Source: an uncultured Candidatus Saccharibacteria bacterium
Lineage (GTDB): Bacteria > Patescibacteriota > Minisyncoccia > Phycocordibacterales > UBA918
Length of the DNA: 64,000 nt
Direction: 5' to 3'
Assembly (NCBI GenBank): GCA_964353135.1
Contig: CAYGTV010000001.1
Location: forward strand, 18,696 to 82,695
The translations under genes were made by a program, and so were the position numbers. Of this stretch, positions 26,986 through 52,411 are shown piece by piece (position 1 is the stretch's first letter; each line of letters begins with the position of its first letter). Under the pieces are notes generated by a model, which saw only the letters and a list, made by a program, of their open reading frames with translations, made no database searches and was not told where the DNA came from.

Positions 26986-28050
26986 CTAGTTAGCAAATGT
27001 CACTCGTTGTTCGAATGCATCGTTTCGACTGTTTCGGTCGGTTGATTCGTCAACAGAAACTTCAAATGTATGAGAAGCGTCAGATCCGGCTGCAAAGCCA
27101 ATCGTGAGTACTGCTCGTTCATTTGGTTTTAGTGGGACTTGGACTGGTGAGTTGTACGTACCACCATTTGGAAGTGACACCTCAAATGTCCAGTTGCTAG
27201 AAGTCTTGGTCCCAAAGTTCTTGACTGAGAATTGGATTGCTCCACCTTCGTTAGCCTCTACTGTGCCTGGGACAAACCGGTTGCTTACTATATCACCAAC
27301 AGCGATAAACGAAGTCGATAGGTCTGTGACACCATTTGGGTCAGAAGTAGGGATTTCGTATACAAATTCCTGTTCAAACACTGGTGTGCTTGGCGTTGGT
27401 GTAACTGGAGTGATCACCGCTGGTGTCTCTGGTTCTGGTACGGCTGGCACTTCAGGTTCTACTACTACTTCGTTGGTGAGTTCACCTGAGTCAGTATTAA
27501 ATACAAATCCATTTACTTCCTCGTTGATGATAGTTACCACGTCTGAACCCATTGCTCGTGGTTCGGTGTCGTTTGTTGATAGAAATCCAACACTATATGT
27601 GACGTCAGTGTATCGATTTTTTTCAGATTCAATAGCTACAGTGAGTGATGTTACATCACCGACATTGTAATTTGTGTCACACGCTAGCTGTCGTTCAACA
27701 GTTCCTTCAATTTGGTTGACAGCAACTCCATCAATACAGTCATAGGCAAACACGTATGATCCCCTGGCGTTGGCTGATTCCCATTCAATATCAAGCGCTT
27801 CACCTGTTTTCATGAGTGACGTGTTGCTAGTGACAATAATTGGTTCCATCACGTCATCCTCAACCATTGTTTCAGATGCCTGATCGACTCCTTCTGCAAG
27901 CGAAGCGAGTGATGTCAGGGCGTTAGGGAATAATTGAACTAGTTGAATTGAAAGCCAAGCTAGCAGTAGTACGATAGCGACGAATCCTGCAACAGCAAAT
28001 GTATTGAGGATCGACACTTTCTTTTGTGGTGATACGTTATTTGTTTCCAT
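26986..28050 (-). CDS. membrane-anchored extracellular hypothetical protein (Pro/Thr-rich linker)
   Basis: N-terminal signal anchor; PEVPAVPEPETPAVITPVTPTPSTP linker; beta-rich C-terminal domains; divergent from the sortase gene. Confidence 0.5.
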   Translation of the reverse strand: METNNVSPQKKVSILNTFAVAGFVAIVLLLAWLSIQLVQLFPNALTSLASLAEGVDQASETMVEDDVMEPIIVTSNTSLMKTGEALDIEWESANARGSYVFAYDCIDGVAVNQIEGTVERQLACDTNYNVGDVTSLTVAIESEKNRYTDVTYSVGFLSTNDTEPRAMGSDVVTIINEEVNGFVFNTDSGELTNEVVVEPEVPAVPEPETPAVITPVTPTPSTPVFEQEFVYEIPTSDPNGVTDLSTSFIAVGDIVSNRFVPGTVEANEGGAIQFSVKNFGTKTSSNWTFEVSLPNGGTYNSPVQVPLKPNERAVLTIGFAAGSDASHTFEVSVDESTDRNSRNDAFEQRVTFAN

Positions 28051-28149
28051 AGTTGACGTATAGTAGCATAGATTACACGAATGTCAACATTAAAATGTCG
28101 CTTTGTCTAGGTTGGTCATTGACGGGTAAATCTGTAGGGAAGATAAACA

Positions 28150-28178
28150 TTGACAATTACAATAAATAGTGCTACTAT
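28150..28178 (+). promoter_or_regulatory. sigma70-like promoter of the sortase gene (TTGACA-17-TACTAT), implying a leaderless or very short-leader mRNA
   Basis: TTGACA at 28150-28155, a 17-nt spacer, TACTAT at 28173-28178; the first in-frame ATG of the sortase lies at 28189. Confidence 0.45.
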
Positions 28179-28188
28179 CCTATGCATT

Positions 28189-28884
28189 ATGCATTTTTCT
28201 GACACTGTAAAAGCCATCTGGGCTAATAAAATAAGCTTCTTTGGAGTATTCTTCATTATTTTTACCGTTCTATACACGGTACTTTTCCTAGTTGATTTTC
28301 TCCCAGAGGCACCCGAAGCTAGGCCAGCTACAACCGAAGTAACTGAAGTTGCTTCGGCTGTAGACGTTGCGCCAGTGGTAATCCAGACACCAGCGGTTGC
28401 AGAGTCAGAATTGGTAGCTGAAACAGTCGTTAGTGCATCAGCACCTGATATGCCAATTAGTATTTATATTGAACGACTCGACAAGACAATCGATGTGTTG
28501 AACCCACAATCACGATCAATTGCTGATCTCGATAACGCTCTATTGTCAGGAGTGGTGCGACACCCAGACTCTGCGACACCTAATATTGATGGAAATGTAC
28601 TGATCTTAGGACACTCTAGTTATTTGCCAAATGTTCTCAACAAGAACTTTCAGGCTTTTAACGGCGTTCAAAACCTAGAATGGGGTGATACGATCACGAT
28701 AACTTCAGAAAATGCAGTGTATACCTACCGGGTAGAGCGGGTATATGAAGCACGAGCGAGTGAAATCACCGTTCCAATTGCTGGCGACGCAAAACTACTT
28801 ACTCTAGCGACCTGTGATAGTTTTGGAAGTGTAGATGACCGTCACATCGTAGAAGCCAAGCAAATTAGCGTTGAATTGCTGTAA
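28189..28884 (+). CDS. sortase family transpeptidase
   Basis: N-terminal TM anchor; catalytic His in LILGHSSY; TLxTC-type Cys motif LTLATCDSF; conserved Arg 10 residues downstream (VDDRH). Confidence 0.75.
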   Translation: MHFSDTVKAIWANKISFFGVFFIIFTVLYTVLFLVDFLPEAPEARPATTEVTEVASAVDVAPVVIQTPAVAESELVAETVVSASAPDMPISIYIERLDKTIDVLNPQSRSIADLDNALLSGVVRHPDSATPNIDGNVLILGHSSYLPNVLNKNFQAFNGVQNLEWGDTITITSENAVYTYRVERVYEARASEITVPIAGDAKLLTLATCDSFGSVDDRHIVEAKQISVELL

Positions 28885-28920
28885 AAGCGACATTTTACCT
28901 ACATATATTAGAATACAAAA

Positions 28921-28950
28921 GAAAGCACTTGACAAGAGTGCTTTCTTTTG
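28921..28950 (+). terminator. terminator hairpin after the sortase gene, overlapping the next promoter
   Basis: gaaagcact tgacaag agtgctttc followed by ttttg; the 7-nt loop contains the -35 hexamer TTGACA of the downstream promoter. Confidence 0.5.
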
Positions 28951-28957
28951 CTATAGT
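28929..28957 (+). promoter_or_regulatory. consensus sigma70 promoter (TTGACA-17-TATAGT) driving the small lipoprotein gene
   Basis: TTGACA at 28929-28934, a 17-nt spacer, TATAGT at 28952-28957; the downstream gene has an AGGAG ribosome-binding site 7 nt before its ATG. Confidence 0.5.
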
Positions 28958-29022
28958 ACTAGACATAAAGAAACCAAGATCCTTAGGGCAAAGTGCTCAG
29001 ATCTTCAAACAGGAGACGCAAA

Positions 29023-29400
29023 ATGCGTATTACGACAATTTTGGCAGCAGCTGCTGTATCACTCTCTGCTTGTGCATCGTTTGATGGTTCTCGAGGCATC
29101 ACTGCTGCCTACGTCGAAGGTGATCGGGTCATTGTCGAAACGGTCTCCGGACGTATTGGCGATTTTCCAAAATATCGGATGTGCACATGGGCGCACATCA
29201 ACATCGATCAGGAGGAGAGTTACCGGCTTCGCGCTAACCGCGATTCGACCGAACGGAGTATCCTTGGGGTCACAATCGAGGGTCTCGATTGTCCGTTTGT
29301 CAAACCACGCGAAGGTTCGGGCGGCGGCGGTGTCCGGCAGACAGACTTCGTTGAAGACACAAATCCGACCAATGACCAACCATCACGTGGTCAGCAGTAG
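29023..29400 (+). CDS. small putative lipoprotein (Cys-containing, secreted)
   Basis: MRITTILAAAAVSLSAC is a signal peptide with a lipobox-like LSAC; strong promoter and ribosome-binding site; lies in a local GC-rich stretch (about 60% versus about 45% background). Confidence 0.5.
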   Translation: MRITTILAAAAVSLSACASFDGSRGITAAYVEGDRVIVETVSGRIGDFPKYRMCTWAHINIDQEESYRLRANRDSTERSILGVTIEGLDCPFVKPREGSGGGGVRQTDFVEDTNPTNDQPSRGQQ

Positions 29401-29534
29401 TAAGAATACAACCCCTCCAGCAAAACATCGCTGGTGGGGTTGACTTTTTATATTATGTGTGCTAATCTTGTAGAAATCAAGTACAGGACCAAAGAGACCT
29501 TTGACTTCAAATTTTCACAGCCTTGGAGGGCATC

Positions 29535-30065
29535 ATGGAAAAAATCTATACATTACTGGCAGGTGCTTTCCTTACGGTAATCACTTGTGTCGCCGCCGCC
29601 GCGCCGACAACAGTTGAGGCTCAAACAGCCCCAACCACAACTTCTGAATGTGTTTCAGTCGTTGTCGATCTCTACTGCCAAAAAGCTCATGATGGTCTGT
29701 TTATTGGAGACCGGGAGGTAGAAACCGTTCAAATCACGGTTTGTGCACTTCCCGAACACTGGGCCGCAATCCAACGCCAAGACCCCAACGATTCATGGTG
29801 GGGAGAGGCGCTAGCGGACACAGGCCGCCCTGATCTGCGATGGCTCAAGATCCGAGCAATCAAGGAGCAGTGTCGCATTCGTCATGCACCAATCGGTGCA
29901 CGAGTCGGTACGAGATACCTCTGCCCACCAACAGTCGAGGGTTGGTATTGGACAGAGGTTGTGACTGGACCTGGGACATACTTCATGTCTATTCCGGTAT
30001 CAGACACCACTCCAAATCCAGCCAACCCAGACCCGGATGAGAACGTCCCAGCTCTCATTGGTTAA
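29535..30065 (+). CDS. small secreted Cys-containing hypothetical protein
   Basis: MEKIYTLLAGAFLTVITCVAAAAPTTVEAQ signal peptide; GGAGG ribosome-binding site 7 nt upstream of the ATG at 29535 (the track start at 29523 is TTG); same GC-rich patch. Confidence 0.5.
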   Translation: MEKIYTLLAGAFLTVITCVAAAAPTTVEAQTAPTTTSECVSVVVDLYCQKAHDGLFIGDREVETVQITVCALPEHWAAIQRQDPNDSWWGEALADTGRPDLRWLKIRAIKEQCRIRHAPIGARVGTRYLCPPTVEGWYWTEVVTGPGTYFMSIPVSDTTPNPANPDPDENVPALIG

Positions 30066-30199
30066 GTGAAAAGTAGATCGGCTGTAAAGGCCGATCTACA
30101 TGAATCAAACTGGATTCAGACGAGTTGTTACGACAACTCTTTTAATCCGATTTTATTCGGTGCAGACAAATTTAGAAACAAATTACTTACAATATATTT

Positions 30200-33100
30200 A
30201 TGAAAACAATCTCACAATCATTTATTTTCGCTGGAATCGTACTTGCACTACTTGCTGGTGTATTTGCTTTTTCTGCAATGACTGCTGATGCCTATGGTTC
30301 AAGTTGTGGATCATGTGATGCACCTGACACAGGTGGAGGAAGTATCGGTGGTGGAGGCGGTGGATCTACTCCACCTTCTGTTACACCCCCAGTTTGTGAT
30401 ATCGATGTAGATCTAGACGTTGTAGCAGTTGGAGAATTTTACACCATTGACTGGAATGTTATTTCAGCATCTCCAGTTAACGTATACATCAACGGTGACC
30501 ATGTAGAAAAGACAGGGGAAGCAACTTATGATTTTCTTGCCTCAACACCAGAACTAGAATTTTTCAATCTAACAGCAGAAAATGCTGGAGGTACATGTTC
30601 TGATCGAGTTGAGATTAGAAAAAAAGTAGTCGAAGAAAAGAAATGTGAACTTGAAATCACAAAATCTGTCGACAAGCACTCAGCTACACCTGGAGAAGAA
30701 CTAACGTACGAGATCAAAGTTGAAAACATTGGTACAGCTGACTGTACTGGAGGAGGGGTTAAGATCGAAGACGTTCTAGACACTAACTTTGAGTACGTAA
30801 GTAATACCTACACCAGTAACCTGACAGAAGGCTACGGATCTGCACCCGTTTATACAGCCTCTACCCGAACAATTCGATTCAATGGAAACACTCTTACTCC
30901 AGGTGAATCAGGAACTATCGTACTATTTGGAAAAGTGGCGACACCACACACATGTGGAGACTTTGAAGTAAAAAACCAAGCTTTTGCCACGGCTTTCGAA
31001 CTAGATAACTTTAATGACTGGGTATACAGTAATGTCGTAAAGACTAACGTTGACTACGATTGTGAAGTGCCTGCGCCACTATGTACGTCATTTACAGCTA
31101 CACCTGGAACTCTTCCAGCAGCTGGTGGAACAGTGGTTCTTGATTGGGACCTACTAAACGTAGCGACTGCTGTAATCGACAACGGAGTTGGAGAAGTGCT
31201 TGCTAATGTTGGATCAAATTATGGTTCAGTTTCTGGGTCACAAACAACGGTCGTAACACAATCAACTACATTTACCTTAACGGCAACAGATGTGGACGGA
31301 GACAAAACTACCTGTAAAGCGCCAGTAACTGTACCAACAGACAATCCTACACCACCACAATGTCCACTAGTCGCAAAAGACGGTCGAACAATTGTAAATT
31401 TCTCAGGAATGAAACTGCGAACTGACCGAACTGCTAACGATGCAGTAACAGCAATCCAATCAGCCGCATTCCCAGTTGGGGAGTATGACATCACGCTTGT
31501 TTCTTGGGACGGATACACCAATCGTGTAAACGCTTCACAGCCAAACGAACAGTGGAAACTAGAGTTCATGAACGGTTCAGCAGTGATTGCTGGATCAGGA
31601 ATCATCGGTGATCTAGCTGATAACGTGATCGAAGCAACAAAGATTGAGCAGGTGAACACGGATTTCACGTTAGCAACTGCAGCGACCGGCGTACGAGCAA
31701 TCCACCCATTCTACCCAGCGTCATCACCAAACAGTCTGTACCCAATTTGTGCAGCAATTGATGAAAAACCGAAAGAAGTAGTGCCACCATCATGTGATAT
31801 GTTCACCGCTACACCGGCGACTATCACAGTTGGAGGAACAGCTACCCTTGCATGGGAATCAACCAACGCTGTCCAAGCATTCATCAACAACGCAATCGGC
31901 GCAGTGGATGTAGACGGAACTATCGAAGTGTCACCATTAGCTGATACAACCTACGTCCTAACACTGATCGGTGCAGAAGATAATACTGTTAACTGTAACG
32001 TACCGGTGAAAGTTGTAGATGAGCCAGTCATGGAATGTGTCGCATTTACTGCGAGCCCATCAGCTCTACCAGTAGGAGGTGGAAACACAACTCTTGCGTG
32101 GGAAGTAATCAACGCAGTATCGGTATCAATCGATAACGGTATTGGCGCGGTTGCACTAACTGATACGCGGGTTGCAGCAGTAACAGAGTCAACGACCTAC
32201 ACCCTCACAGCAACTGATGCTGATGGTGATACAGTTTCATGTATCGCGCCAGTGGCTGTAGCTGATCCGGGAGTGTTTACGTGTGAAGACAACGTCTCAT
32301 TCTCTGCAAGTGATACATCTATCACTCGAGGACAAAGTTCAACTCTTAATTGGGATGTAACAGATGCTGATTCAGTATCTATCTCAGGAATTAGTGCTAC
32401 TACCTTTACTGGTTCACAATCAGTATCACCATCAAGTGACACTACCTATACACTGACAGCAACAAAATCAGGCTTTGAAACTATCTCATGTCCAGTAAAG
32501 ATCAACGTATCTACTGGCGGTGGGGGAGGTGGTACACCAACACCACGTTGTGAACTAGAGATTTCTGACACTCGGATCAACGCTGGAGACGAAATCACAC
32601 TAACGTGGGATTCAACTAACGCTCGAGAACTGACCCTAACTGATAACTTTGGCAACACCCTCGTTACGACAGAAGATAAACTAAGTCGTGATAAAGATGA
32701 TTTGTTTGAAGGAAGTATTGATTTGAACCCAACTCGAAACACAACGTATACACTCCTAGTTGAGCGAGGTTCACGAGATCGAGAATGTGAAGTTAAAGTT
32801 GAAATGGATGATGACGTTGTGCTACTACAGGTTCGAGACCAAGCTCCACTAGTGTCAGGTATCTCGCTAACGCAAGTGCCGTACACCGGATTTGAAGCGG
32901 GACCAATCATGACAGTACTGTTCTACATGCTACTTATCACGTGGGCGCTATACATCACCTATGTACTGGTGATGCCAAAAGCACAGCTTGCAATGGTTCC
33001 AGTAAAGAACAGTTCACTGCGAACTAACGAAGACCTCATGCAACATGCAGAGCAAATTCGACCAGATGTGTTTGCCGCCGTATCAGCCGCACCAGTTGTG

Positions 33101-33703
33101 GAGGTACCAGCTAATCTACCGGTTGCGACTACTCATGTAGCGATGCCAGTAGTTGCCGAAATTCCAGACACAAACACAATTGAAAACCAGGCACATGCAT
33201 TGCAAGCACTTATTTCAAGTGATGCGGCGCGAACTATTGCTGCTATGACTAACGAGTCAAACCAAGCAGAAGTGCTACGGAAAATTGTAAATGATGCGAA
33301 GGGACAATTCCCACTAGAAGACGGATGGGTTGTAATCAACCAATCGCGTCTAGCACAAATCACAGATACTACTACTACAACAGTGTCTCCGTCACCAACA
33401 GGTGCTGGTTCACTAGCGGAAGCTATCGTGACTGGTAACGTTGTTGCAGCGTACAATCTAGTTGGCACTCGACCAATGATCGCGCTAGCAGATGCCGCTG
33501 CTGACCTTGATGCAGTGTACCGAATTAAAAAAGGTGCAGACGCAACAGTTTCAGACATGCTTGCTACAGAAACAGAAAATCTTTCAGAAGGAAAGATCGC
33601 AGAAATGATTGCTGCCCTAACTGGAGCCCTCGACGGAACCTACACCGACGAAAGCTCAGCTGTGAAAATGGCTATCATGAAAGCGGTACAGATTGCTGGA
33701 TAA
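30200..33703 (+). CDS. giant cell-surface protein: signal peptide, DUF11-like domain, at least 6 Cys-bracketed Ig-like repeats, VPYTG sorting-like motif plus TM, then a ~230-aa C-terminal extension
   Basis: Signal peptide; KSVDKHSATPGEELTYEIKVENIGTADCTGGGVKIEDVLDTNFEYVSNTYT resembles DUF11/TIGR01451; repeats of the form C..F.A.P......G...L.W...NA....I.NG.G.V......TTY.LTAT...G....C.APV.V; SLTQVPYTGFEAGP followed by a TM helix at about aa 900. Confidence 0.7.
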   Translation: MKTISQSFIFAGIVLALLAGVFAFSAMTADAYGSSCGSCDAPDTGGGSIGGGGGGSTPPSVTPPVCDIDVDLDVVAVGEFYTIDWNVISASPVNVYINGDHVEKTGEATYDFLASTPELEFFNLTAENAGGTCSDRVEIRKKVVEEKKCELEITKSVDKHSATPGEELTYEIKVENIGTADCTGGGVKIEDVLDTNFEYVSNTYTSNLTEGYGSAPVYTASTRTIRFNGNTLTPGESGTIVLFGKVATPHTCGDFEVKNQAFATAFELDNFNDWVYSNVVKTNVDYDCEVPAPLCTSFTATPGTLPAAGGTVVLDWDLLNVATAVIDNGVGEVLANVGSNYGSVSGSQTTVVTQSTTFTLTATDVDGDKTTCKAPVTVPTDNPTPPQCPLVAKDGRTIVNFSGMKLRTDRTANDAVTAIQSAAFPVGEYDITLVSWDGYTNRVNASQPNEQWKLEFMNGSAVIAGSGIIGDLADNVIEATKIEQVNTDFTLATAATGVRAIHPFYPASSPNSLYPICAAIDEKPKEVVPPSCDMFTATPATITVGGTATLAWESTNAVQAFINNAIGAVDVDGTIEVSPLADTTYVLTLIGAEDNTVNCNVPVKVVDEPVMECVAFTASPSALPVGGGNTTLAWEVINAVSVSIDNGIGAVALTDTRVAAVTESTTYTLTATDADGDTVSCIAPVAVADPGVFTCEDNVSFSASDTSITRGQSSTLNWDVTDADSVSISGISATTFTGSQSVSPSSDTTYTLTATKSGFETISCPVKINVSTGGGGGGTPTPRCELEISDTRINAGDEITLTWDSTNARELTLTDNFGNTLVTTEDKLSRDKDDLFEGSIDLNPTRNTTYTLLVERGSRDRECEVKVEMDDDVVLLQVRDQAPLVSGISLTQVPYTGFEAGPIMTVLFYMLLITWALYITYVLVMPKAQLAMVPVKNSSLRTNEDLMQHAEQIRPDVFAAVSAAPVVEVPANLPVATTHVAMPVVAEIPDTNTIENQAHALQALISSDAARTIAAMTNESNQAEVLRKIVNDAKGQFPLEDGWVVINQSRLAQITDTTTTTVSPSPTGAGSLAEAIVTGNVVAAYNLVGTRPMIALADAAADLDAVYRIKKGADATVSDMLATETENLSEGKIAEMIAALTGALDGTYTDESSAVKMAIMKAVQIAG

Positions 33704-43168: not shown

Positions 43169-43555
43169 ATGGTAGTACGAATGCGTCACACGCGGGCTCA
43201 CACCGCAAATCGTCGATCTCATCACGCGCTAAGCGCGCCGACTTTAGCAGTGTGTGGTAACTGTGGTTCACACCACCGACCGCATCACATGTGTCAAGAA
43301 TGTGGTTTTTACAAAGGTCGAATGGTGATTGACATGAAAGCAAAGTCAGACAAACGAACAGCTCGGATGACTGCTAAAAAAGAAGCCATCAAAGGACAGC
43401 AAGCAGACGCTGAACAAGAAGATATGCCAGAAGCAATTGCTCCAGATTCAGGAGTAACTCCAGACAAAGTAGCAGGTGACAAAATGAAAACAGTTGCCGC
43501 CCCATCTGTAGCAGCTGAAAAAACAGCTTCTCCTCGAAAACATCAAGGATCATAA
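43169..43555 (+). CDS. rpmF: ribosomal protein L32 with ~70-aa Lys/Ala/Glu-rich C-terminal extension
   Basis: RRSHHALSAPTLAVCGNCG...CQECGFYKGR is the L32 zinc-ribbon core (about the first 55 aa); the remainder is a low-complexity tail. Confidence 0.7.
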   Translation: MVVRMRHTRAHTANRRSHHALSAPTLAVCGNCGSHHRPHHMCQECGFYKGRMVIDMKAKSDKRTARMTAKKEAIKGQQADAEQEDMPEAIAPDSGVTPDKVAGDKMKTVAAPSVAAEKTASPRKHQGS

Positions 43556-43643: not shown

Positions 43644-44555
43644 ATGGCCAACCGACATTTATCCCGTAGCATCGTTCTTCAGTCACTCTTTGAGTGGGAT
43701 TTAAATGCGCTTGAGAAGAAAGCCGTGCACGAAGTGCTTGACCGAAACGTTGCAGAATTCGCACCTAATAAAACCGACACTCCATTTATGGCAAAGTTGC
43801 TCGATGGTGTGATGTCAAAGCAGTCTGAATTGGATCTGGTGATCGAAAAGGCTGCTCCAGAATGGCCAATTGATCGAATTTCTCCTGTCGATCGAAATAT
43901 CCTCAGACTTGGTCTATACGAACTACTCTTTGCAGATCGCAAGGAGGTCCCAGCAAAAGTAGCAATCAACGAAGCAATTGAACTCGCTAAACAATTTGGC
44001 GGTGACAATAGTAGTCGGTTTGTTAACGGTGTACTAGGTGCGGTGTACAAAGAAATTGGTGAACCAGGCAAAGATGAACAAGGTGCAAAGCGTAAAAAGC
44101 AAGTTGCCTTTGAAGACATGCCCATTCAGCGACTGGCCGGTGCGGTAGTGTACGCCCAACACGAAGGACAGATGTATCTGGCTTTAGTACACGACATTTT
44201 TGGACACTGGACCCTATCAAAAGGAAAAATTGAAGATGGCGAGACGGTCGAGGCTGGTGCAGCACGTGAACTCAAAGAAGAAATTGGGCTTGATATAACA
44301 ATCGAAGCTGAGCTAGGTAATAATGAATACGTTGCTAGCAATCCAGAGTTAGGCAAGGTTCGCAAGCAAGTGCACTATTTCCTAGCAAAAGCAGAGTATC
44401 GGGAACTAGTGCTGGAACAAAAAGGTGGACTAGATGATGCCAAGTGGTTTAAAGTAGCCGAAATCCTTGACCTTAACTTTTATGAGGATATTCTGCCGAT
44501 TGTTACCAAGGCCATTACTATGCTCGTCGGTCGAGGAACACAAGAAATGAAATAA
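43644..44555 (+). CDS. nusB: NusB transcription antitermination factor fused to a C-terminal Nudix hydrolase domain
   Basis: aa 1-140 are NusB-like (ILRLGLYELLF...AINEAIELAKQFGGDNSSRFVNGVLGAV); aa ~155-300 carry a Nudix box GKIEDGETVEAGAARELKEEIGL (GX5EX7REUXEEXGU). Confidence 0.75.
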   Translation: MANRHLSRSIVLQSLFEWDLNALEKKAVHEVLDRNVAEFAPNKTDTPFMAKLLDGVMSKQSELDLVIEKAAPEWPIDRISPVDRNILRLGLYELLFADRKEVPAKVAINEAIELAKQFGGDNSSRFVNGVLGAVYKEIGEPGKDEQGAKRKKQVAFEDMPIQRLAGAVVYAQHEGQMYLALVHDIFGHWTLSKGKIEDGETVEAGAARELKEEIGLDITIEAELGNNEYVASNPELGKVRKQVHYFLAKAEYRELVLEQKGGLDDAKWFKVAEILDLNFYEDILPIVTKAITMLVGRGTQEMK

Positions 44556-44704: not shown

Positions 44705-45415
44705 ATGGCAGATTACGAACCAAACACAGATTTACATAAACTACAGACAATCCTTGGGACGCAATTCAACGACCTAGATTTGTTGCGGTCAGCTGTTACC
44801 CATCGATCGTATTTAAACGAACACAAGGAAGCCACCTGGGAGCATAACGAGCGTCTAGAATTCCTAGGTGATGCAGTGCTAGAGCTGGTGGTGACCGATT
44901 TTTTGTTCAAGAAGTACACCGATAAACCAGAAGGTGAGCTAACTGCAGTGCGGGCTGCTCTAGTGAACACGGTTTCGCTGTCAGCAGCGTCAGAGGCACT
45001 TGGGGTCAATGAATTCCTAATGATGAGTAAAGGGGAAGCGAAAGACATGGGTCGGGCGCGACAGTATATTCTCGCGAATACGTTTGAGGCCTGCATCGGA
45101 GCGATGTACATGGATCAAGGGTACGACGCTGCCCAGCAGTTCATAGCGACCCATCTCTTTCCAAAGACTGATGAAATAGTTGCCAAAAGACTATGGCAAG
45201 ACCCCAAGTCACGGTTTCAAGAGTTGGCCCAAGAGCACCACAGTGTGACACCGACATATGAGACGGTTGCACAAGAGGGTCCTGATCATGATCGTATATT
45301 TACCGTTGGGGTATTTCTACGCAAAGAGCAGGTTGCCGCTGGGACTGGCCGCTCCAAACAAGAGGCCGAGCAAGCCGCCGCCCTAGCTGCTATGACCGTC
45401 AAAGGTTGGGACTAG
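44705..45415 (+). CDS. rnc: ribonuclease III
   Basis: RNase III signature ERLEFLGDAVLELVVTDFLF; C-terminal dsRBD. Confidence 0.9.
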   Translation: MADYEPNTDLHKLQTILGTQFNDLDLLRSAVTHRSYLNEHKEATWEHNERLEFLGDAVLELVVTDFLFKKYTDKPEGELTAVRAALVNTVSLSAASEALGVNEFLMMSKGEAKDMGRARQYILANTFEACIGAMYMDQGYDAAQQFIATHLFPKTDEIVAKRLWQDPKSRFQELAQEHHSVTPTYETVAQEGPDHDRIFTVGVFLRKEQVAAGTGRSKQEAEQAAALAAMTVKGWD

Positions 45416-45435: not shown

Positions 45436-45876
45436 ATGTATAGCAAACGTCTAGGTTTTACATTGATTGAGATTCTCGTTGTTATTTCAATTTTGGCAAT
45501 ACTCCTGTCCATCGTTGCTTTTTCTGGTTCTGAAGCGCGCTCTACTGCCAATGCAACGGTGGCTGATCAGGATGTTCAGCAAATTGGACTAGCGATGCAG
45601 CTGTATCTAGAAGCTAACAATGACCTCCCTCCAGATGCTACTTGGAGTGATGCTGTTGATGCGCTGTACCCGACCTATTTATCAAAGCGCATCGATGTCG
45701 ATCGGTGGGGAAATGCCTTTGAGTACCAAAACAACTATGGTGGCGGGATTTCCAGTCGGGGGTCCCTGGTTTGTAGTTCTGGTCCTGATGGAACATTTGA
45801 TACTACTGACACTGATCTAGCTGTATACGAAGCTGGCGGGGATGATATCTGCCGATTTATTTTTGATGAAGATTAG
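45436..45876 (+). CDS. type IV pilin / pseudopilin (prepilin-type N-terminal cleavage/methylation domain)
   Basis: MYSKRLG|FTLIEILVVISILAILLSIV is a class III signal peptide with the G/F cleavage site and Glu+5. Confidence 0.7.
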   Translation: MYSKRLGFTLIEILVVISILAILLSIVAFSGSEARSTANATVADQDVQQIGLAMQLYLEANNDLPPDATWSDAVDALYPTYLSKRIDVDRWGNAFEYQNNYGGGISSRGSLVCSSGPDGTFDTTDTDLAVYEAGGDDICRFIFDED

Positions 45877-46615
45877 TATGTTCCTACGCTCATCCAAAAG
45901 AGGTTTTACAATAATTGAATTGCTAGTGACAGTTTCTTTGTTGGTTATTTTGCTCAGCATTGCAATTGCAAGTTTTGGTCCAGCAAGAGAGAAATCACGA
46001 GATACCCAACGGCAGACAGACTTACGAACGATCGAAGCAGCGTTGGCTCTGTATAAAAATAAATATGGTGTATATCCAGAAGGTTGCAATGGTCCGACTA
46101 CCAGTGCAACTCCCGTGTGGTCAGGTCAATTGGGGTCTGATTATGAATGTACGTCTGGAGGACGTCAGTTTATCATTGGTCTTGCTCCAGAGTTTTTACC
46201 GAAATTGCCAATCGACCCTAAACTGAATGGTACTGATTCTGGTTATGTGTATGCGGTAAACAGCGAGCGATCGGTATACAAAGTCATGGCTCTAAATACC
46301 GTTGAAACTGAGGTGGTTGGTTACGGTGATGAGTTTTTCCGTTGTGGACAAGAGTTTAATCCTGTCTTGGTATCAACTGATAGTAGTGTCGGTGCATCCT
46401 ACAATGATCCTGAAATATGCGAACGAGTTCCACCGACCCTTCCAGGTGGATATAATCCAGGAGGTTACACCGCTCCGACTGTGTGTACTGGTGTTGATGG
46501 TTATGGTGCCACGTATGCCGTATCTGCCGGATTTTCTAATGATGCCAGGGGTCTCTCTGGTGTTAATGCTAATAAGGGTCGTGAATACGACACTGAAAAC
46601 GTACGGTGTCGGTAA
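45866..46615 (+). CDS. type IV pilin-like protein
   Basis: MKISMFLRSSKRG|FTIIELLVTVSLLVILLSIAIA prepilin signal. Start uncertain: ATGs at 45866 and 45878; the track ORF begins at 45842. Confidence 0.65.
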   Translation: MKISMFLRSSKRGFTIIELLVTVSLLVILLSIAIASFGPAREKSRDTQRQTDLRTIEAALALYKNKYGVYPEGCNGPTTSATPVWSGQLGSDYECTSGGRQFIIGLAPEFLPKLPIDPKLNGTDSGYVYAVNSERSVYKVMALNTVETEVVGYGDEFFRCGQEFNPVLVSTDSSVGASYNDPEICERVPPTLPGGYNPGGYTAPTVCTGVDGYGATYAVSAGFSNDARGLSGVNANKGREYDTENVRCR

Positions 46616-46664
46616 GGGATAACTGTTTTAACCCGTTCAGCTACAGTGCTATCATGAGTATATT

Positions 46665-47258
46665 ATGCAACGGCTAAGAGGCTTTACTCTGATTGAAATT
46701 CTCGTCACAATTTCGATTATTGCGATTTTGGCTAGTATTATCTATGTTAGTTTTGGGGAGGCTCGGGTTAATGCCCGCAACAAAGCTATGACAGTTGAGT
46801 TGAAAGAAATCCAGCTGCAGCTCGAGACCTACCGGGCTCAAAATAATTCTTATCCATTGCCAGAACCTGGCTGTGGTAGCGCAACTGGGGGTCAGCTAGT
46901 GGCACGTAGTAATGGTTCTGGTAGTTGGTGTTCAAATAACTACTTCAACACCAGTGCAGCCCGACAAACTCCGTTATTTGTACCTGAATTTGTCACCAAA
47001 ATACCAAAGAACGCTGATTCTGCAAATTCGGACTGTGTGATTGAGTACCGCACCGACAGCGCAGCTACTTGGTATAAACTAACTGCGATTAACTGCCTTG
47101 CTGGTGTAGATAGTAGTACTGGGATTGACCCGGGAGAGCCGCTGTCACGCTGCTCCTCATCTTGTCCTGAGGGGTCGTCAGGTGATACTTGTTATCCAGA
47201 TGATCCAGAATACTATCAGTCATTTGCGGTCTACAGCCTCGGCGGTCAGTGTGAATAG
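46665..47258 (+). CDS. type IV pilin-like protein
   Basis: MQRLRG|FTLIEILVTISIIAILASIIYV prepilin signal; C-terminal Cys pairs. Confidence 0.7.
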   Translation: MQRLRGFTLIEILVTISIIAILASIIYVSFGEARVNARNKAMTVELKEIQLQLETYRAQNNSYPLPEPGCGSATGGQLVARSNGSGSWCSNNYFNTSAARQTPLFVPEFVTKIPKNADSANSDCVIEYRTDSAATWYKLTAINCLAGVDSSTGIDPGEPLSRCSSSCPEGSSGDTCYPDDPEYYQSFAVYSLGGQCE

Positions 47259-47260
47259 GT

Positions 47261-49504
47261 ATGTATTTAAAAGAACTCACAATCAACGGTTTTAAGTCGT
47301 TCGCTAAAAAAAGCGAGCTAGAATTCTCATCCCCGATCACTGCTATCGTTGGACCTAATGGTTCGGGAAAAAGTAACGTCGCTGAATCATTTCGGTTTGT
47401 GCTGGGTGAACAGTCGGTCAAGTCACTGCGGGGTAAAAAGGGTGAGGACCTCATTTGGGGTGGTTCAGAGAGCAGCGCTCGTGGCAATAGGGCAAGTGTC
47501 TCGATTGTGTTTGATAACAGTAGCCGAGCATTTGCGCTGGATTATGACGAGATCACCATCGAACGCATCGTGCATCGCGACGGTCAAAATGAATATAAAT
47601 TGAACGGAACAGCTGTTCGACTTAAAGATATTCACGAATTGTTGGCTGAAGCGCACATTGGATCGACTGGTCATCACATTATTTCTCAAGGTGAAGCTGA
47701 TCGAGTGATTTCAGCTGGCACCAAAGAACGTCGGGAAATGATCGAAGATGCACTCGGACTCAAGGTGTACCAAATCAAGAAAGCTGACGCGGCGCGTAAG
47801 CTGCAAAAGACCCAAGAAAACATTACTCAAGTTGCGTCACTGCGTCGTGAAGCCGCCCCTCATTTAAAATATTTAAAAAAGCAGGTCGAGCGAGCTGAGC
47901 GCTCTTTAGCAGTACAAACGGAATTAAAAAATGTATACGCCGAGTATCTGAAACGAGAAGATCTATATCTCGCTCAGCGATATGACGAGTTGATCACTAA
48001 CCTACGAGTGCCCAAATCAGAGTTGCAGACCGTGACAGAGAGTATTGCAAAACTCAAAGTTGAACTGGCTGAACTAACACAGGTCCAAGATACTACAGCT
48101 CGTGACGCAGCCGATCAAACCCTGCAGCAAGTACGAACAGAGAGGGTTGCTGCTGAGCGTGCCTTAAGCACCTTAGAGGGTCAAATTGCTCTGCTAGAGC
48201 GACGGATTGCCCAGTCTCAGCAACCAGCGGCAGAAGCGCCACAACTCATCCCTCGGGCGAAACTGCAGGCCCTGGTTGCGAGTATTAAAGCTTCAGCTGA
48301 AAAAGCCCTCAATCGTCAGGATGCTAGTACTGTAGAGCGGACATTGCGTGACGTAATTAGTCAGTTGACTCAATTTATCGATCGTGAAGAAGTATTCAAG
48401 GTTGATACAAGTGCGGCTGACCAGGCAGAGATGCAGTCAGTTTTGAAACAAATCCCAGCAGCCAGAGAAGAACTCGAGCAGGTACAGCAAAGGGAGGTCG
48501 AAGCAAGTGCGGCTTTGGCTGCCGCTCGTCAGGACTTAGAGCAGCAATCTAACCAGCATCACGAGTCGGAACGAACCTTGTTTTCACAACTGGGAAGAGA
48601 GCGTGAATTGCAACAAGAGGTTCGTTCGATTGAGACTGAATTACAAGTGATTGAACGTGATCGTGACGAATTTAAACGCGAATTACAAGAAGCCGTTACG
48701 CTGCTCGGTCGTGGAGCCTCAGACTATTTGTCATACGTAGTAAAAAACGAAGCTGGAGAACCTCAACCTGATGAGGAGATTATGTCAGAGGACCGGCAAG
48801 TACAGCGCGAACGTAGACGTAACCTAGAGCGACTCAAAATTCGTTTGGAGGAACTTGGTGTAGGAGCGACCGATGACCTGTTAAAAGAATACAAAGAAGC
48901 GCAAGAACGAGATGAATTCTTGGCCAAAGAAACCGCAGACCTTGAATCTTCGGTAGAGAACCTTAACTCTTTGGTGGCAGATATGGACGCTCAACTACAC
49001 GAGCAGTTTGTAGCTGGTATTGAAAAAATCGCTACCGAGTTTAACCGGTTTTTCACACTTATGTTCGGTGGAGGTGAAGCGAAACTAGAGCGTGTAAAAC
49101 TTAAACAGACTAGTGAAGATGACGAGGAAGCCGACCAGTCGCTTATCGAAGAGGGGGTTGATCTACACGTAGCGCTACCTAATAAACGCGTGAAAGGATT
49201 GCAGATGTTGTCAGGCGGGGAGCGAGCACTGACTTCAATTGCGCTTATTTTTGCGATGAGTCAGGTAAATCCTCCTCCGTTTATTATTCTTGACGAGACT
49301 GATGCGGCGCTCGATGAGGCTAACAGTCGTCGCTATGGTGACATGATTGAAGCGTTAGCGCAGAAATCTCAGCTGGTACTCATTACTCATAACCGTGAGA
49401 CCATGAGTCGAGCCGGAATCCTCTATGGAATTACGATGGGAAGTGACGGAATTTCAAAAGTGCTGTCGGTTAAGTTCGATGAAGCAGCTGCAAATGCGAA
49501 GTAA
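47261..49504 (+). CDS. smc: SMC-family chromosome segregation ATPase (short, hinge not recognisable)
   Basis: N-terminal Walker A GPNGSGKSN; QGEADRVISAGTKERREMIEDALG matches the SMC N-head motif; C-terminal LSGGERALTSIALIFAM...ILDETDAALD signature/Walker B; about 450 aa of coiled coil between; only 747 aa. Confidence 0.75.
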   Translation: MYLKELTINGFKSFAKKSELEFSSPITAIVGPNGSGKSNVAESFRFVLGEQSVKSLRGKKGEDLIWGGSESSARGNRASVSIVFDNSSRAFALDYDEITIERIVHRDGQNEYKLNGTAVRLKDIHELLAEAHIGSTGHHIISQGEADRVISAGTKERREMIEDALGLKVYQIKKADAARKLQKTQENITQVASLRREAAPHLKYLKKQVERAERSLAVQTELKNVYAEYLKREDLYLAQRYDELITNLRVPKSELQTVTESIAKLKVELAELTQVQDTTARDAADQTLQQVRTERVAAERALSTLEGQIALLERRIAQSQQPAAEAPQLIPRAKLQALVASIKASAEKALNRQDASTVERTLRDVISQLTQFIDREEVFKVDTSAADQAEMQSVLKQIPAAREELEQVQQREVEASAALAAARQDLEQQSNQHHESERTLFSQLGRERELQQEVRSIETELQVIERDRDEFKRELQEAVTLLGRGASDYLSYVVKNEAGEPQPDEEIMSEDRQVQRERRRNLERLKIRLEELGVGATDDLLKEYKEAQERDEFLAKETADLESSVENLNSLVADMDAQLHEQFVAGIEKIATEFNRFFTLMFGGGEAKLERVKLKQTSEDDEEADQSLIEEGVDLHVALPNKRVKGLQMLSGGERALTSIALIFAMSQVNPPPFIILDETDAALDEANSRRYGDMIEALAQKSQLVLITHNRETMSRAGILYGITMGSDGISKVLSVKFDEAAANAK

Positions 49505-49756
49505 CTTTTTGTTTTATCTAGCAGTTACAGTATTTCGGGTGTAACAAAAAGTGAGGTGATAATCGTGGCAGCTAATTCTAAAGTCCAGGTTGATAGTGGA
49601 GGTGATAATCCTCGATTCTCAGTTTTGGGTCAAAGCAGGCTTCTTCGTAGTCGTCTACCCAAAGAGGTAGACAAACAGCCAGAAGACAGTGGTGTGTCAC
49701 AGACTGTCTCTGTCAGGAAAAACAACACTGACTTGTGGCTAGAGTTATAGCAAACA

Positions 49757-49784
49757 GGCGCGCAAGGAAATCTCCTTGCGCGCC
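49757..49784. terminator. bidirectional hairpin between convergent smc and rnr
   Basis: ggcgcgcaagga aatc tccttgcgcgcc, a perfect 12-bp stem. Confidence 0.55.
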
Positions 49785-49803
49785 TAAATCGTTTCGATAG
49801 TAA

Positions 49804-51958: not shown

Positions 51959-52411
51959 ATGTTAATGATGCGTTTACAACGAGTTGGTCGAAAGAACGAC
52001 CCTGCCTACCGTATTGTCGTTACAGACAAGCGGACTGGTGTGAAGAGCGACAAGCATGTCGATCGAATTGGCTCATACAACCCAAAACTGGGTACTATTA
52101 TTCTAGATAAAGATAAAGCCAAACAATGGCTGTCTCAAGGTGTTCAGGCGTCTGGAACTATGCACAATATTCTTGTGTCTGAAGGTGTGATTGATGCTAA
52201 AAAGATCAACGTTCTACCAAAGAAATCTCCAATTATCGACGAAGAAGCGATCAAAAAAGCTGAGGAAGAAGCAGCCGCAAAAGCAGCCGCTGAAGCCGAA
52301 GCAGAAACTCCAGCCGAAGAGGCTGCAACAGAGTCAGCAGAGGAAACTCCAGCCGAAGAACCAGCCCCAGAAGCTGAAACACAAGCAGCTGAGGAAGAGG
52401 TAAAGGCGTAA
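51959..52411 (+). CDS. rpsP: ribosomal protein S16 with Ala/Glu/Pro-rich C-terminal extension
   Basis: MRLQRVGRKNDPAYRIVVTDKRTGVKSDKHVDRIGSYNP is the S16 core, followed by a ~70-aa low-complexity acidic tail. Start uncertain among ATGs at 51959, 51965 and 51968. Confidence 0.8.
   Translation: MLMMRLQRVGRKNDPAYRIVVTDKRTGVKSDKHVDRIGSYNPKLGTIILDKDKAKQWLSQGVQASGTMHNILVSEGVIDAKKINVLPKKSPIIDEEAIKKAEEEAAAKAAAEAEAETPAEEAATESAEETPAEEPAPEAETQAAEEEVKA

What the first reader, a model, noticed from the sequence alone, without database searches (positions are those of the whole stretch)
47261..49504. SMC-type ATPase of only 747 aa with no recognisable hinge or zinc hook
The head domains are unambiguous SMC: Walker A; the QGEADRVISAGTKERREMIEDALG N-head motif; and the C-terminal LSGGERALT signature/Walker B with ILDETDAALD. 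However, the central ~450 aa are continuous predicted coiled coil. There are no Gly-rich hinge motifs and no CxxC hook, and the protein is ~400 aa shorter than canonical SMC. I see no scpA/scpB partners nearby. It directly follows three pilin genes.
Basis: partly seen in the sequence, partly recalled or inferred. Interest (0 to 1): 0.5.

Follow-up and report, generated by a model that had tools for sequence, protein, structure and literature searches.

The report
Hinge-less, half-length bacterial SMC protein
This gene encodes the candidate-phyla-radiation (CPR) version of the chromosome-organising protein SMC, with the normal ATPase head but half-length arms and a tiny two-helix cap in place of the hinge (a Rad50-like zinc hook in sister lineages), so it is a natural test of what the hinge and long arms are for.

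Summary
ORF 47261-49504 (+) encodes a 747-aa protein with a complete, bona fide bacterial Smc head. It scores 544 bits on TIGR02168 and matches the B. subtilis Smc head at E 6e-90, against only 38-65 bits for RecN and Rad50. It has no Pfam hinge, no cysteine, and arms of about 150 residues.

It is not an artefact. Hundreds of protein clusters from Paceibacteria and Uhrbacteria (CPR), down to 31% identity, keep the same 700-810-aa architecture with almost indel-free arms. The gene sits where canonical smc sits, downstream of rnc.

About 440-480 canonical residues (the hinge plus the distal half of each arm) are replaced by about 60 residues. AlphaFold2 predicts these with pLDDT 93 as two short helices whose hydrophobic stripes are conserved.

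In a Vogelbacteria-type subfamily at the same locus, a single C-P-x-C-G-Q motif replaces the cap. Its closest solved relative is the Rad50 zinc hook. Arm lengths are identical in both types.

Best reading: a minimised condensin Smc that dimerises at the apex. Dimerisation and ScpAB partnership are inferred and were not tested. The pilin linkage is lineage-specific.

I found no published description. I rate it a new variant of a known kind.

The parts
47261..49504 (+). Short hinge-less smc gene (747 aa plus stop codon).
   Evidence: ORF list. SMC_N spans residues 2-732. TIGR02168 scores 544 bits. Best PDB match is the B. subtilis Smc head 5xg3, E 6e-90.
47261..47761 (+). N-terminal half of the ABC-type head (aa 1-167). 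It carries Walker A GPNGSGKS (aa 31-38, nt 47351-47374), the arginine finger R57, the Q-loop Q143, and the head DNA-binding residues K60, R120 and K122.
   Evidence: Gap-free alignment to B. subtilis Smc residues 1-213. These positions are invariant or basic in alignment A1. K60/R120/K122 is the '3A-hd' DNA-binding patch of B. subtilis Smc (bioRxiv 10.1101/495820).
47762..48217 (+). N-terminal arm helix (aa 168-319), with the conserved neck (aa 166-240) and the (G)RLEG motif (aa 303-307) near its end.
   Evidence: AF2 helices H168-272 and H279-319. Heptad pattern. The segment 166-307 has a median length of 143-144 residues in 279 relatives.
48218..48409 (+). Apex module that replaces the hinge (aa 320-383). 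It consists of a Pro-rich linker, I330-P331, helix A (332-352), helix B (355-378) and a linker.
   Evidence: AF2 of aa 285-425 with 35 diverse sequences gives mean pLDDT 93 and four helices. Hydrophobic stripes are conserved in 142 members. No hinge homology was found. No NCBIfam hit.
48410..48730 (+). C-terminal arm helix (aa 384-490).
   Evidence: AF2 helix H384-490. Query residues 333-738 map to TIGR02168 profile positions 805-1180. The segment 391-483 has a median length of 93 residues in both apex types.
48731..48868 (+). Joint-like interruption of the C-arm (aa 491-536), ending in the conserved RLEELG-G motif.
   Evidence: AF2 shows non-helical and short-helix segments at 491-536. Residues 518-560 align with the B. 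subtilis Smc head-proximal construct 5xg3. E530, G533 and G535 are invariant.
48869..49504 (+). C-terminal neck helix (aa 537-602) and C-terminal half of the head (aa 603-747) plus the stop codon. It carries the signature LSGGE (aa 650-654, nt 49208-49222), Walker B FIILDE (aa 674-679, nt 49280-49297), the D-loop TDAALD and the H-loop ITH (aa 708-710).
   Evidence: Residues 646-720 are 95-100% conserved in A1.
44705..45415 (+). rnc (RNase III), the ancestral upstream neighbour of smc.
   Evidence: Translation. Homologues in L001 and L003 carry Ribonuclease_3 and dsrm domains. rnc lies upstream on the same strand in 16 of 23 short-smc loci. An rnc homologue is present in 43 of the 57 remaining loci (L030-L086, mostly canonical smc); in most of these it lies 54-300 nt upstream of smc.
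45436..47258 (+). Three tandem type IV pilin-like genes inserted between rnc and smc (45436-45876, 45842-46615, 46665-47258).
   Evidence: N_methyl motif in all three, T2SSG in the first. The same insertion occurs only in the closest relatives W, L001, L003 and L007. The stop of the last pilin gene lies 2 nt before the smc ATG.
49755..49786 (.). G+C-rich 14-bp-stem hairpin between the convergent smc and rnr genes. It is terminator-like.
   Evidence: Terminator scan: 14 pairs, 9 of them G-C, followed by a T-rich tail on the minus strand. This is a consensus match only.

Best explanation
This is the Paceibacteria (CPR/Patescibacteria) orthologue of the bacterial condensin subunit Smc in a minimised architecture.

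Shown:
- The head is a complete Smc ABC-ATPase and keeps the head DNA-binding patch, the neck and the joint.
- Each arm is cut to about 150 residues, roughly 22 nm on a standard 0.15 nm/residue rise and less than half the canonical length.
- The hinge and the distal half-arms (about 440-480 canonical residues) are replaced by a module of about 60 residues. That module forms two short amphipathic helices capping the end of the antiparallel coiled coil.

Inferred:
- Two protomers are joined at this apex cap. In the Vogelbacteria-type sister subfamily they would be joined by inter-protomer zinc coordination through a single CxxC hook.
- ATP engages the two heads.
- The resulting small ring or rod acts on the roughly 1-Mb chromosome like Smc-ScpAB, clamping DNA on the engaged heads and organising or segregating the chromosome. 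It probably works with a kleisin bound to the strongly conserved neck and cap.

The pilin genes upstream are a lineage-specific insertion into the ancestral rnc-smc pair and are probably just co-transcribed.
For: Identity as Smc:
- TIGR02168 SMC_prok_B gives E 7e-163 and 544 bits. Query residues 2-325 match profile positions 1-320 and residues 333-738 match 805-1180.
- The best solved relatives are B. subtilis and other prokaryotic Smc heads, at E 6e-90.
- hhalign against seven canonical SMCs gives probability 100%, with one gap of about 440 residues over the hinge.
- All ATPase motifs are present and invariant, and K60/R120/K122 are conserved.

Real and under selection:
- More than 120 clusters at 63-100% identity are all 742-761 aa long.
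- All 150 best representatives of 50%-identity clusters are 585-782 aa long, and 147 of them are at least 690 aa.
- A further 120 Uhrbacteria-type clusters include 117 of at least 700 aa, spanning 729-812 aa.
- GTDB genomes carry the short form down to 31% identity.
- The arm segments are nearly indel-free.

Positional orthology:
- rnc lies upstream in 16 of 23 short-smc loci.
- The same arrangement holds for canonical smc in most of the 43 comparison loci that carry rnc.

No hinge: with positive controls.

Apex module:
- AF2 gives pLDDT 93.
- The hydrophobic pattern is conserved in 142 members.

Apex as the dimerisation site (comparative inference):
- 45 of 279 relatives carry exactly one CxxC, placed exactly at the turn, with consensus C-P-[YV]-C-G-Q.
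- A profile of this region finds the P. furiosus Rad50 zinc hook (1l8d, 6zff) as the two best of 177,635 PDB sequences.
- N-arm, C-arm and neck lengths are identical in the cap and hook types. Only the apex differs, at 80 versus 48 residues.
- A hook-type gene lies in the same smc-rnr-rpsP-trmD-rpoB locus.
Against: - Dimerisation through the cap was not tested, because no multimer prediction was available. The cap could simply close a monomeric hairpin.
- The score is just below NCBI's equivalog cut-off for SMC (544 against 567 bits).
- The presence of ScpA and ScpB in these genomes could not be checked. None is in the window or in 1.45 Mb of fetched loci.
- I could not search whole genomes for a second, full-length SMC.
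- The similarity to the Rad50 hook is weak (E 0.004; Pfam Rad50_zn_hook E 0.006, below threshold).
- The first full-length AF2 model has low confidence in the head (mean pLDDT 73).
Confidence: 0.7

Rival explanations
1. The heads and arms are as described, but the cap is only an intramolecular closure. The protein has no constitutive apex dimerisation. It dimerises only through ATP-engaged heads, possibly with a kleisin, and so behaves more like an ABC, RecF or RecN-type clamp with a lever arm than like a ring.
Against: Sister proteins put a single CxxC at the same place. One CxxC can bind zinc only with a second protomer, as in Rad50. The hydrophobic stripes on helices A and B are three positions wide in places (338/339, 361/362, 372/373). 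Arm length is tightly fixed, which is expected if two arms must co-align.
Confidence: 0.2
2. It is a specialised SMC-like paralogue, for example a Rad50/RecN-like DNA-repair tether or a defence ATPase, and not the housekeeping condensin. A canonical SMC or another condensin would then be encoded elsewhere in these genomes.
For: It scores below the SMC equivalog cut-off. Hook-bearing relatives resemble Rad50 at the apex. PADLOC gives hits to mad3 (204 bits) and LmuB (65 bits).
Against: The SMC model outscores every repair or defence model by more than 300 bits. The gene occupies the canonical rnc-smc position amid housekeeping genes such as rpmF, nusB, rnr, rpsP, trmD and rpoB. No nuclease (Mre11/SbcD, LmuA) or methylase partner lies nearby. 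Among the loci kept from the genome scan, every full-length match whose record title names a CPR lineage is the short form.
Confidence: 0.08
3. It is an artefact: an assembly deletion, a pseudogene, or a mis-called ORF of a normal smc.
For: None beyond the unusual length.
Against: There are hundreds of independent clusters from NCBI, JGI, ENA and Logan assemblies. They share the same length, have intact heads and show almost no indels. The hydrophobic pattern of the replacement module is conserved.
Confidence: 0.01

Closest known systems
Canonical bacterial Smc (Smc-ScpAB condensin; TIGR02168; B. subtilis Smc, PDB 5xg3/3zgx)
   Same: The head sequence matches over residues 1-213 without a gap. 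All ATPase motifs, the head DNA-binding residues K60/R120/K122, the neck, the joint and the genomic position downstream of rnc are shared.
   Different: There is no hinge domain. The arms are about 150 residues instead of about 330-350. About 440-480 residues are replaced by a two-helix cap of about 60 residues. The score is below the equivalog cut-off. ScpAB partnership is unverified.
Short-armed SMCs of about 980 aa (loci L084 and L031 from 'Bacilli' and 'Clostridium' MAGs)
   Same: They are naturally shortened bacterial SMCs found downstream of rnc.
   Different: They still carry a clear SMC_hinge domain (E 4e-24 and 9e-31). The query has none and is a further 230 aa shorter.
Rad50/SbcC
   Same: Both have an ABC-type head, an antiparallel coiled coil and no globular hinge. 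The Vogelbacteria-type sister subfamily has a single CxxC at the apex, and its profile best matches the P. furiosus Rad50 zinc hook.
   Different: The query itself has no cysteine. The head is Smc-type and not Rad50-type (65 against 544 bits). No Mre11/SbcD-like gene lies nearby.
Archaea-specific SMC-related proteins (ASRP: ClsN/coalescin, Sph1/Sph2)
   Same: These are short SMC-related proteins in which a zinc hook replaces the hinge, and ClsN organises chromosome compartments (PMC9389158). This is the closest described analogue of an SMC-like chromosome organiser without a hinge.
   Different: That family is described as archaea-specific. The query scores 52 bits against a cut-off of 300. 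The query family derives directly from bacterial Smc, and most of its members use a helical cap and not a hook.
RecN
   Same: Both have a short coiled coil and no hinge domain. RecN dimerises through the coiled-coil ends (general knowledge, not tested here).
   Different: TIGR00634 gives only 38 bits against a cut-off of 408. The head family, the length and the genomic context all differ.
Engineered 'mini-Smc' and arm-length variants of B. subtilis Smc (Buermann et al. 2017, recalled from memory, not read here)
   Same: They embody the idea that Smc tolerates shortened arms only at particular lengths. The near-invariant arm length found here fits such a constraint.
   Different: Those constructs keep the hinge. 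This is a natural protein without one.

Membership tests
Bacterial Smc (condensin, TIGR02168 / Pfam SMC_N + SMC_hinge) | ABC-type head with Walker A, Q-loop, signature LSGGE, Walker B, D-loop and H-loop, with Smc-specific head sequence. | tested here: met
   Motifs at residues 31, 143, 650, 674-685 and 708. SMC_N E 2e-67. Best PDB hits are prokaryotic Smc heads, E 6e-90.
Bacterial Smc (condensin, TIGR02168 / Pfam SMC_N + SMC_hinge) | Whole-protein score above NCBI's equivalog cut-off for chromosome segregation protein SMC. | tested here: not met
   544.1 bits against a cut-off of 567.35, in two stretches. The shortfall is explained by the missing profile positions 321-804.
Bacterial Smc (condensin, TIGR02168 / Pfam SMC_N + SMC_hinge) | Globular hinge dimerisation domain (PF06470) in the middle of the protein. 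| tested here: not met
   No hit at E<=1 for the query. No hit at E<=10 for 35 apex segments. No hit at E<=0.1 for six distant short forms, while four control SMCs score E 1e-24 to 1e-33. There is no structural match to a hinge fold.
Bacterial Smc (condensin, TIGR02168 / Pfam SMC_N + SMC_hinge) | Long antiparallel coiled-coil arms of about 330-350 residues per strand. | tested here: not met
   The N-arm spans aa 168-319. The C-arm spans aa 384-602 including the joint.
Bacterial Smc (condensin, TIGR02168 / Pfam SMC_N + SMC_hinge) | Conserved head-proximal neck and joint, and the head DNA-binding patch. | tested here: met
   Residues 518-742 align with the B. subtilis head-proximal construct. 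Neck conservation is 0.82-0.98 in A1. K60, R120 and K122 are conserved.
Bacterial Smc (condensin, TIGR02168 / Pfam SMC_N + SMC_hinge) | Kleisin ScpA and kite ScpB partners encoded in the genome. | not testable with these tools
   None in the window. No tblastn hit with Pfam-validated ScpA/ScpB queries in 1.45 Mb of loci. scpAB is normally unlinked to smc, and whole genomes could not be read.
Bacterial Smc (condensin, TIGR02168 / Pfam SMC_N + SMC_hinge) | Conserved gene position downstream of rnc. | tested here: met
   rnc lies upstream on the same strand in 16 of 23 short-smc loci. 43 of the 57 comparison loci (mostly canonical smc) carry rnc, in most of them directly upstream of smc.
Rad50/SbcC | Zinc hook (CxxC) at the coiled-coil apex. 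| tested here: not met
   The query has 0 Cys. The feature is met only in the sister subfamily (45 of 279), with weak similarity to the Rad50 hook (E 0.004).
Rad50/SbcC | Rad50-type head by HMM, and a neighbouring Mre11/SbcD nuclease. | tested here: not met
   The best Rad50 model gives 65 bits against a cut-off of 700. No nuclease partner appears in the neighbourhoods.
RecN | Match to the RecN equivalog model. | tested here: not met
   TIGR00634 gives 38 bits against a cut-off of 408.
Archaea-specific SMC-related proteins (ASRP/ClsN) | Match to the ASRP model, with a zinc hook. | tested here: not met
   NF045487 gives 52 bits against a cut-off of 300. There is no Cys. The host is bacterial.
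Defence SMC-like ATPases (Lamassu LmuB, MADS mad3, Gabija GajA, etc.) | Best match to a defence model, and a defence-island context with effector partners. | tested here: not met
   mad3 scores 204 bits and LmuB 65 bits, both far below SMC at 544 bits. The neighbours are housekeeping genes.

The most novel reading that the evidence does not exclude
A large part of the CPR (Paceibacteria and Uhrbacteria) has dispensed with the supposedly universal SMC hinge and with more than half of the arm. The sole chromosomal SMC is a roughly 22-nm mini-condensin closed by a 60-residue helical cap, and that cap has been exchanged in some lineages for a Rad50-type zinc hook. If this protein still organises or loop-extrudes DNA, then hinge-DNA contacts, hinge opening and long flexible arms are not required for SMC function.
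Probability: 0.4. Interest if true: 0.8.

Novelty: new variant of a known kind. Interest (0 to 1): 0.62.

Why it matters
The hinge and the roughly 50-nm arms are treated as defining, universal parts of SMC proteins. Several models of DNA entrapment and loop extrusion give them active roles. Here a bona fide Smc orthologue is conserved across a major bacterial radiation, lacks the hinge, has arms of fixed and much shorter length, and carries interchangeable apex modules (helical cap or zinc hook). This provides a natural minimal system for asking which parts are essential. It also links the SMC and Rad50 architectures through what looks like a module swap. Practically, it explains why annotation pipelines call these proteins only 'AAA family ATPase' (score 544 against a cut-off of 567 bits). 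That naming could lead gene-content surveys to score CPR genomes as lacking SMC.

Tried and rejected
- RecN, SbcC/Rad50, ASRP and defence-ATPase membership: rejected by HMM scores.
- Assembly artefact: rejected.
- Functional link to the pilin genes: not supported. The insertion occurs only in the window and three close relatives among 23 loci.
- ScpA/ScpB search: candidate ORF pairs in the window turned out to be a sortase plus unknown ORFs, S2 plus EF-Ts, and PheS plus an SDR. A motif scan and tblastn of Pfam-validated ScpA/ScpB queries against all fetched loci found nothing. This is uninformative, because scpAB is normally unlinked and whole genomes could not be read.
- The exact window protein is not on record in the contig index, so I could not walk along its own genome.
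- Literature searches for a hinge-less or hook-bearing SMC in CPR found nothing relevant. The only precedent found for an SMC-like protein with a zinc hook is the archaeal ASRP family.
- A neighbour-joining tree timed out. A crude UPGMA on head identity splits the hook-bearing proteins into six clusters, which is not reliable enough to count origins.
- The afdb50 fold library was unavailable.
- The full-length AF2 model had a poorly resolved head, so I used it only for secondary structure.
Full report
**The observation**

The ORF at 47261-49504 (+) is real and encodes 747 aa. The protein has no cysteine, and its only Gly-Gly runs lie in the head. Pfam finds SMC_N spanning residues 2-732 (E 2e-67) and no SMC_hinge. 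The gene follows three pilin-like genes that carry the N_methyl motif, and its ATG lies 2 nt after the stop of the last one.

**Which family the head belongs to**

NCBIfam places the protein in bacterial SMC:
- TIGR02168 gives E 7e-163 and 544 bits, just under the equivalog cut-off of 567.
- Rad50 models reach 65 bits (cut-off 700).
- ASRP reaches 52 bits (cut-off 300).
- RecN reaches 38 bits (cut-off 408).

The best solved relatives are prokaryotic Smc heads. B. subtilis 5xg3 matches at E 6e-90, and residues 1-213 align without a gap. Defence-system models score far lower, with mad3 at 204 bits and LmuB at 65 bits. The B. subtilis head DNA-binding residues K60, R120 and K122 (bioRxiv 10.1101/495820) are conserved.

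**What is missing**

Scanned in halves, query residues 2-325 match TIGR02168 profile positions 1-320, and residues 333-738 match positions 805-1180. The apex segment alone matches nothing. A profile-profile alignment of 44 family members against seven canonical SMCs (1178-1204 aa, fetched) gives probability 100%. It shows one huge gap: canonical residues of about 315-755 have no counterpart. The hinge plus the distal half of both arms is therefore replaced by about 60 residues.

As a control, the Pfam hinge model detects hinges at E 1e-24 to 1e-33 in two canonical SMCs and in two naturally short-armed SMCs of about 980 aa. It detects nothing at E<=0.1 in six distant short forms.

**Not an artefact**

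- The 120 closest clusters (63-100% identity; Paceibacteria, Nomurabacteria, Kaiserbacteria) are all 742-761 aa long.
- The 150 best representatives of 50%-identity clusters are 585-782 aa long, and 147 of them are at least 690 aa, at 40-59% identity.
- A GTDB scan found short forms of 726-810 aa down to 31% identity, including Azambacteria and Uhrbacteria.
- A search seeded with the Uhrbacteria protein returned another 120 hinge-less clusters. The 117 of at least 700 aa span 729-812 aa.
- The arms carry almost no indels. Across 279 proteins the N-arm segment 166-307 has a 5-95% range of 140-147 residues, and the C-arm segment 391-483 has a range of 89-100.

**Orthology by position**

The local gene order is dnaE | rnhB rpmF nusB-nudix rnc (pilins) smc | rnr, then rpsP, KH, trmD and rpoB. 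It recurs in relatives. In 23 short-smc loci, rnc lies upstream on the same strand in 16, often directly adjacent, and rnr lies downstream in 14. Among the 57 remaining loci from the same scan (L030-L086, mostly canonical smc), 43 carry an rnc homologue, and in most of these it sits 54-300 nt upstream of smc. The short gene therefore occupies the ancestral smc slot. The pilin genes between rnc and smc occur only in the window and three close relatives, so they are a lineage-specific insertion.

**How the arms close in this protein**

The full-length AF2 model has mean pLDDT 73 and a poorly resolved head. It gives helices 168-272, 279-319, 332-352, 355-375 and 384-490, a broken 'joint' at 491-536, and helix 537-602.

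A second model covered residues 285-425 and was built from 35 diverse sequences. It has mean pLDDT 93 and four helices, equivalent to residues 286-320, 332-352, 355-378 and 383-424.

Sequence in this region is only about 20% identical across the family, but the hydrophobic pattern is conserved in 142 members:
- I330 (98% hydrophobic).
- 335/338/339/342/346 on helix A.
- 355/358/362/365/369/372/373 on helix B.

**The hook-bearing sisters**

Six of the 150 representatives, and 41 of the 120 nearest relatives of one of them (P0156, Candidatus Vogelbacteria), carry exactly one CxxC. It always lies at the coiled-coil turn, with consensus C-P-[YV]-C-G-Q-x-[IVL], and there is no other CxxC anywhere in those proteins.

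A profile of this region retrieves the P. furiosus Rad50 zinc hook (1l8d, E 0.004; then 6zff) as the two best of 177,635 PDB sequences, with the CPxCG aligned. Pfam Rad50_zn_hook is hit weakly, below threshold.

P0156 lies in the same smc-rnr-rpsP-KH-trmD-rpoB-rpoC locus. Arm, joint and neck lengths are identical in the cap and hook types, and only the apex differs, at a median of 80 versus 48 residues. A single CxxC can coordinate zinc only together with a second protomer. This is the strongest, though indirect, evidence that the apex of this family is a dimerisation site and that cap and hook are interchangeable solutions.

**Mechanism**

Shown: an intact Smc ATPase head with its DNA-binding patch, neck and joint; short arms of fixed length; a folded helical cap in place of the hinge.

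Inferred: homodimerisation through the cap; ATP-driven head engagement that clamps DNA; and a chromosome-organising role like that of Smc-ScpAB in genomes of about 1 Mb. A kleisin probably binds the unusually conserved neck (conservation 0.82-0.98 in A1).

Not established:
- Whether ScpA and ScpB exist in these genomes. None is in the window or in the fetched loci, which is uninformative.
- Whether a second SMC exists elsewhere in these genomes.
- Whether the cap really dimerises.

**Comparison with known systems, and novelty**

The protein works like, and descends from, bacterial Smc. It fails three defining features of that family: the hinge, the long arms and the equivalog score. It is not Rad50/SbcC, RecN, ASRP/ClsN or a defence ATPase by HMM.

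The nearest described analogue in architecture is the archaeal ASRP/ClsN family, where a zinc hook replaces the hinge (PMC9389158). Full-text searches found no description of a hinge-less or hook-bearing SMC in the CPR. Databases name these proteins 'AAA family ATPase' or 'chromosome segregation ATPase'. I therefore rate it a new variant of a known kind, of moderate to high interest to SMC specialists.

Noticed in passing
Relatives P0152, P0156, P0182, P0185, P0192, P0204 and P0271-P0305 etc.; loci L005 (10001-12142) and L006 (987-3095): A subfamily of the short SMCs (Candidatus Vogelbacteria and others, 663-771 aa) has a single C-P-x-C-G-Q motif exactly at the coiled-coil apex. Its best PDB match is the Rad50 zinc hook. 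This amounts to a bona fide Smc head carrying a Rad50-like hook.
   Followed up: yes
window 43644-44555 (+): A NusB-NUDIX fusion protein of 303 aa. The same fusion (PF01029 plus PF00293) is conserved in the related loci L001-L004.
   Followed up: partly
window 43169-43555 (+) and 51959-52411 (+): Ribosomal proteins L32 (128 aa) and S16 (150 aa) carry long, low-complexity, Ala/Glu/Lys-rich C-terminal extensions compared with the usual lengths of about 60 and 85 aa. The extension lengths vary between relatives (L32 is 95-144 aa in L001 and L003).
   Followed up: no
window 45436-47258 (+): Three tandem type IV pilin-like genes are inserted between rnc and smc. The second ORF (as listed from its first ATG) overlaps the first by 35 nt, and the last ends 2 nt before the smc start. 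The third gives a weak hit to the DNA-binding minor pilin ComP_DUS (E 0.0045, below cut-off).
   Followed up: partly
window 26986-33703: A cell-surface gene cluster. It contains a CARDB-domain protein (26986-28050, minus strand), a sortase (28150-28884), two unknown ORFs of 190 and 180 aa, and a 1167-aa DUF11-repeat protein (30200-33703).
   Followed up: no
window 49755-49786: A strong palindromic hairpin (14-bp stem, 9 G-C pairs) lies between the convergent smc and rnr genes. It may act as a bidirectional terminator.
   Followed up: no
locus L070 (contig JAUYPG010000007.1, titled Nanoarchaeota archaeon): An SMC-like ORF (30% identical to the query, cut off by the contig end) sits 194 nt downstream of an rnc that is 49% identical to the window's rnc. 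The arrangement looks bacterial and CPR-like, so the contig may be mis-binned.
   Followed up: no
loci L084 (10001-12931) and L031 (10001-12946): SMCs of about 980 aa from 'Bacilli' and 'Clostridium' MAGs keep a clear hinge but have arms about 100 residues shorter per strand than canonical SMCs. They represent an intermediate degree of arm shortening.
   Followed up: partly
query residues 303-307, nt 48167-48181; alignments A2 and A3: A (G)RLEG motif with a near-invariant glycine lies inside the N-arm about 22-25 residues before the apex. It is shared by the cap-type and hook-type proteins. Its role (a kink or a partner contact) is unexplained.
   Followed up: no
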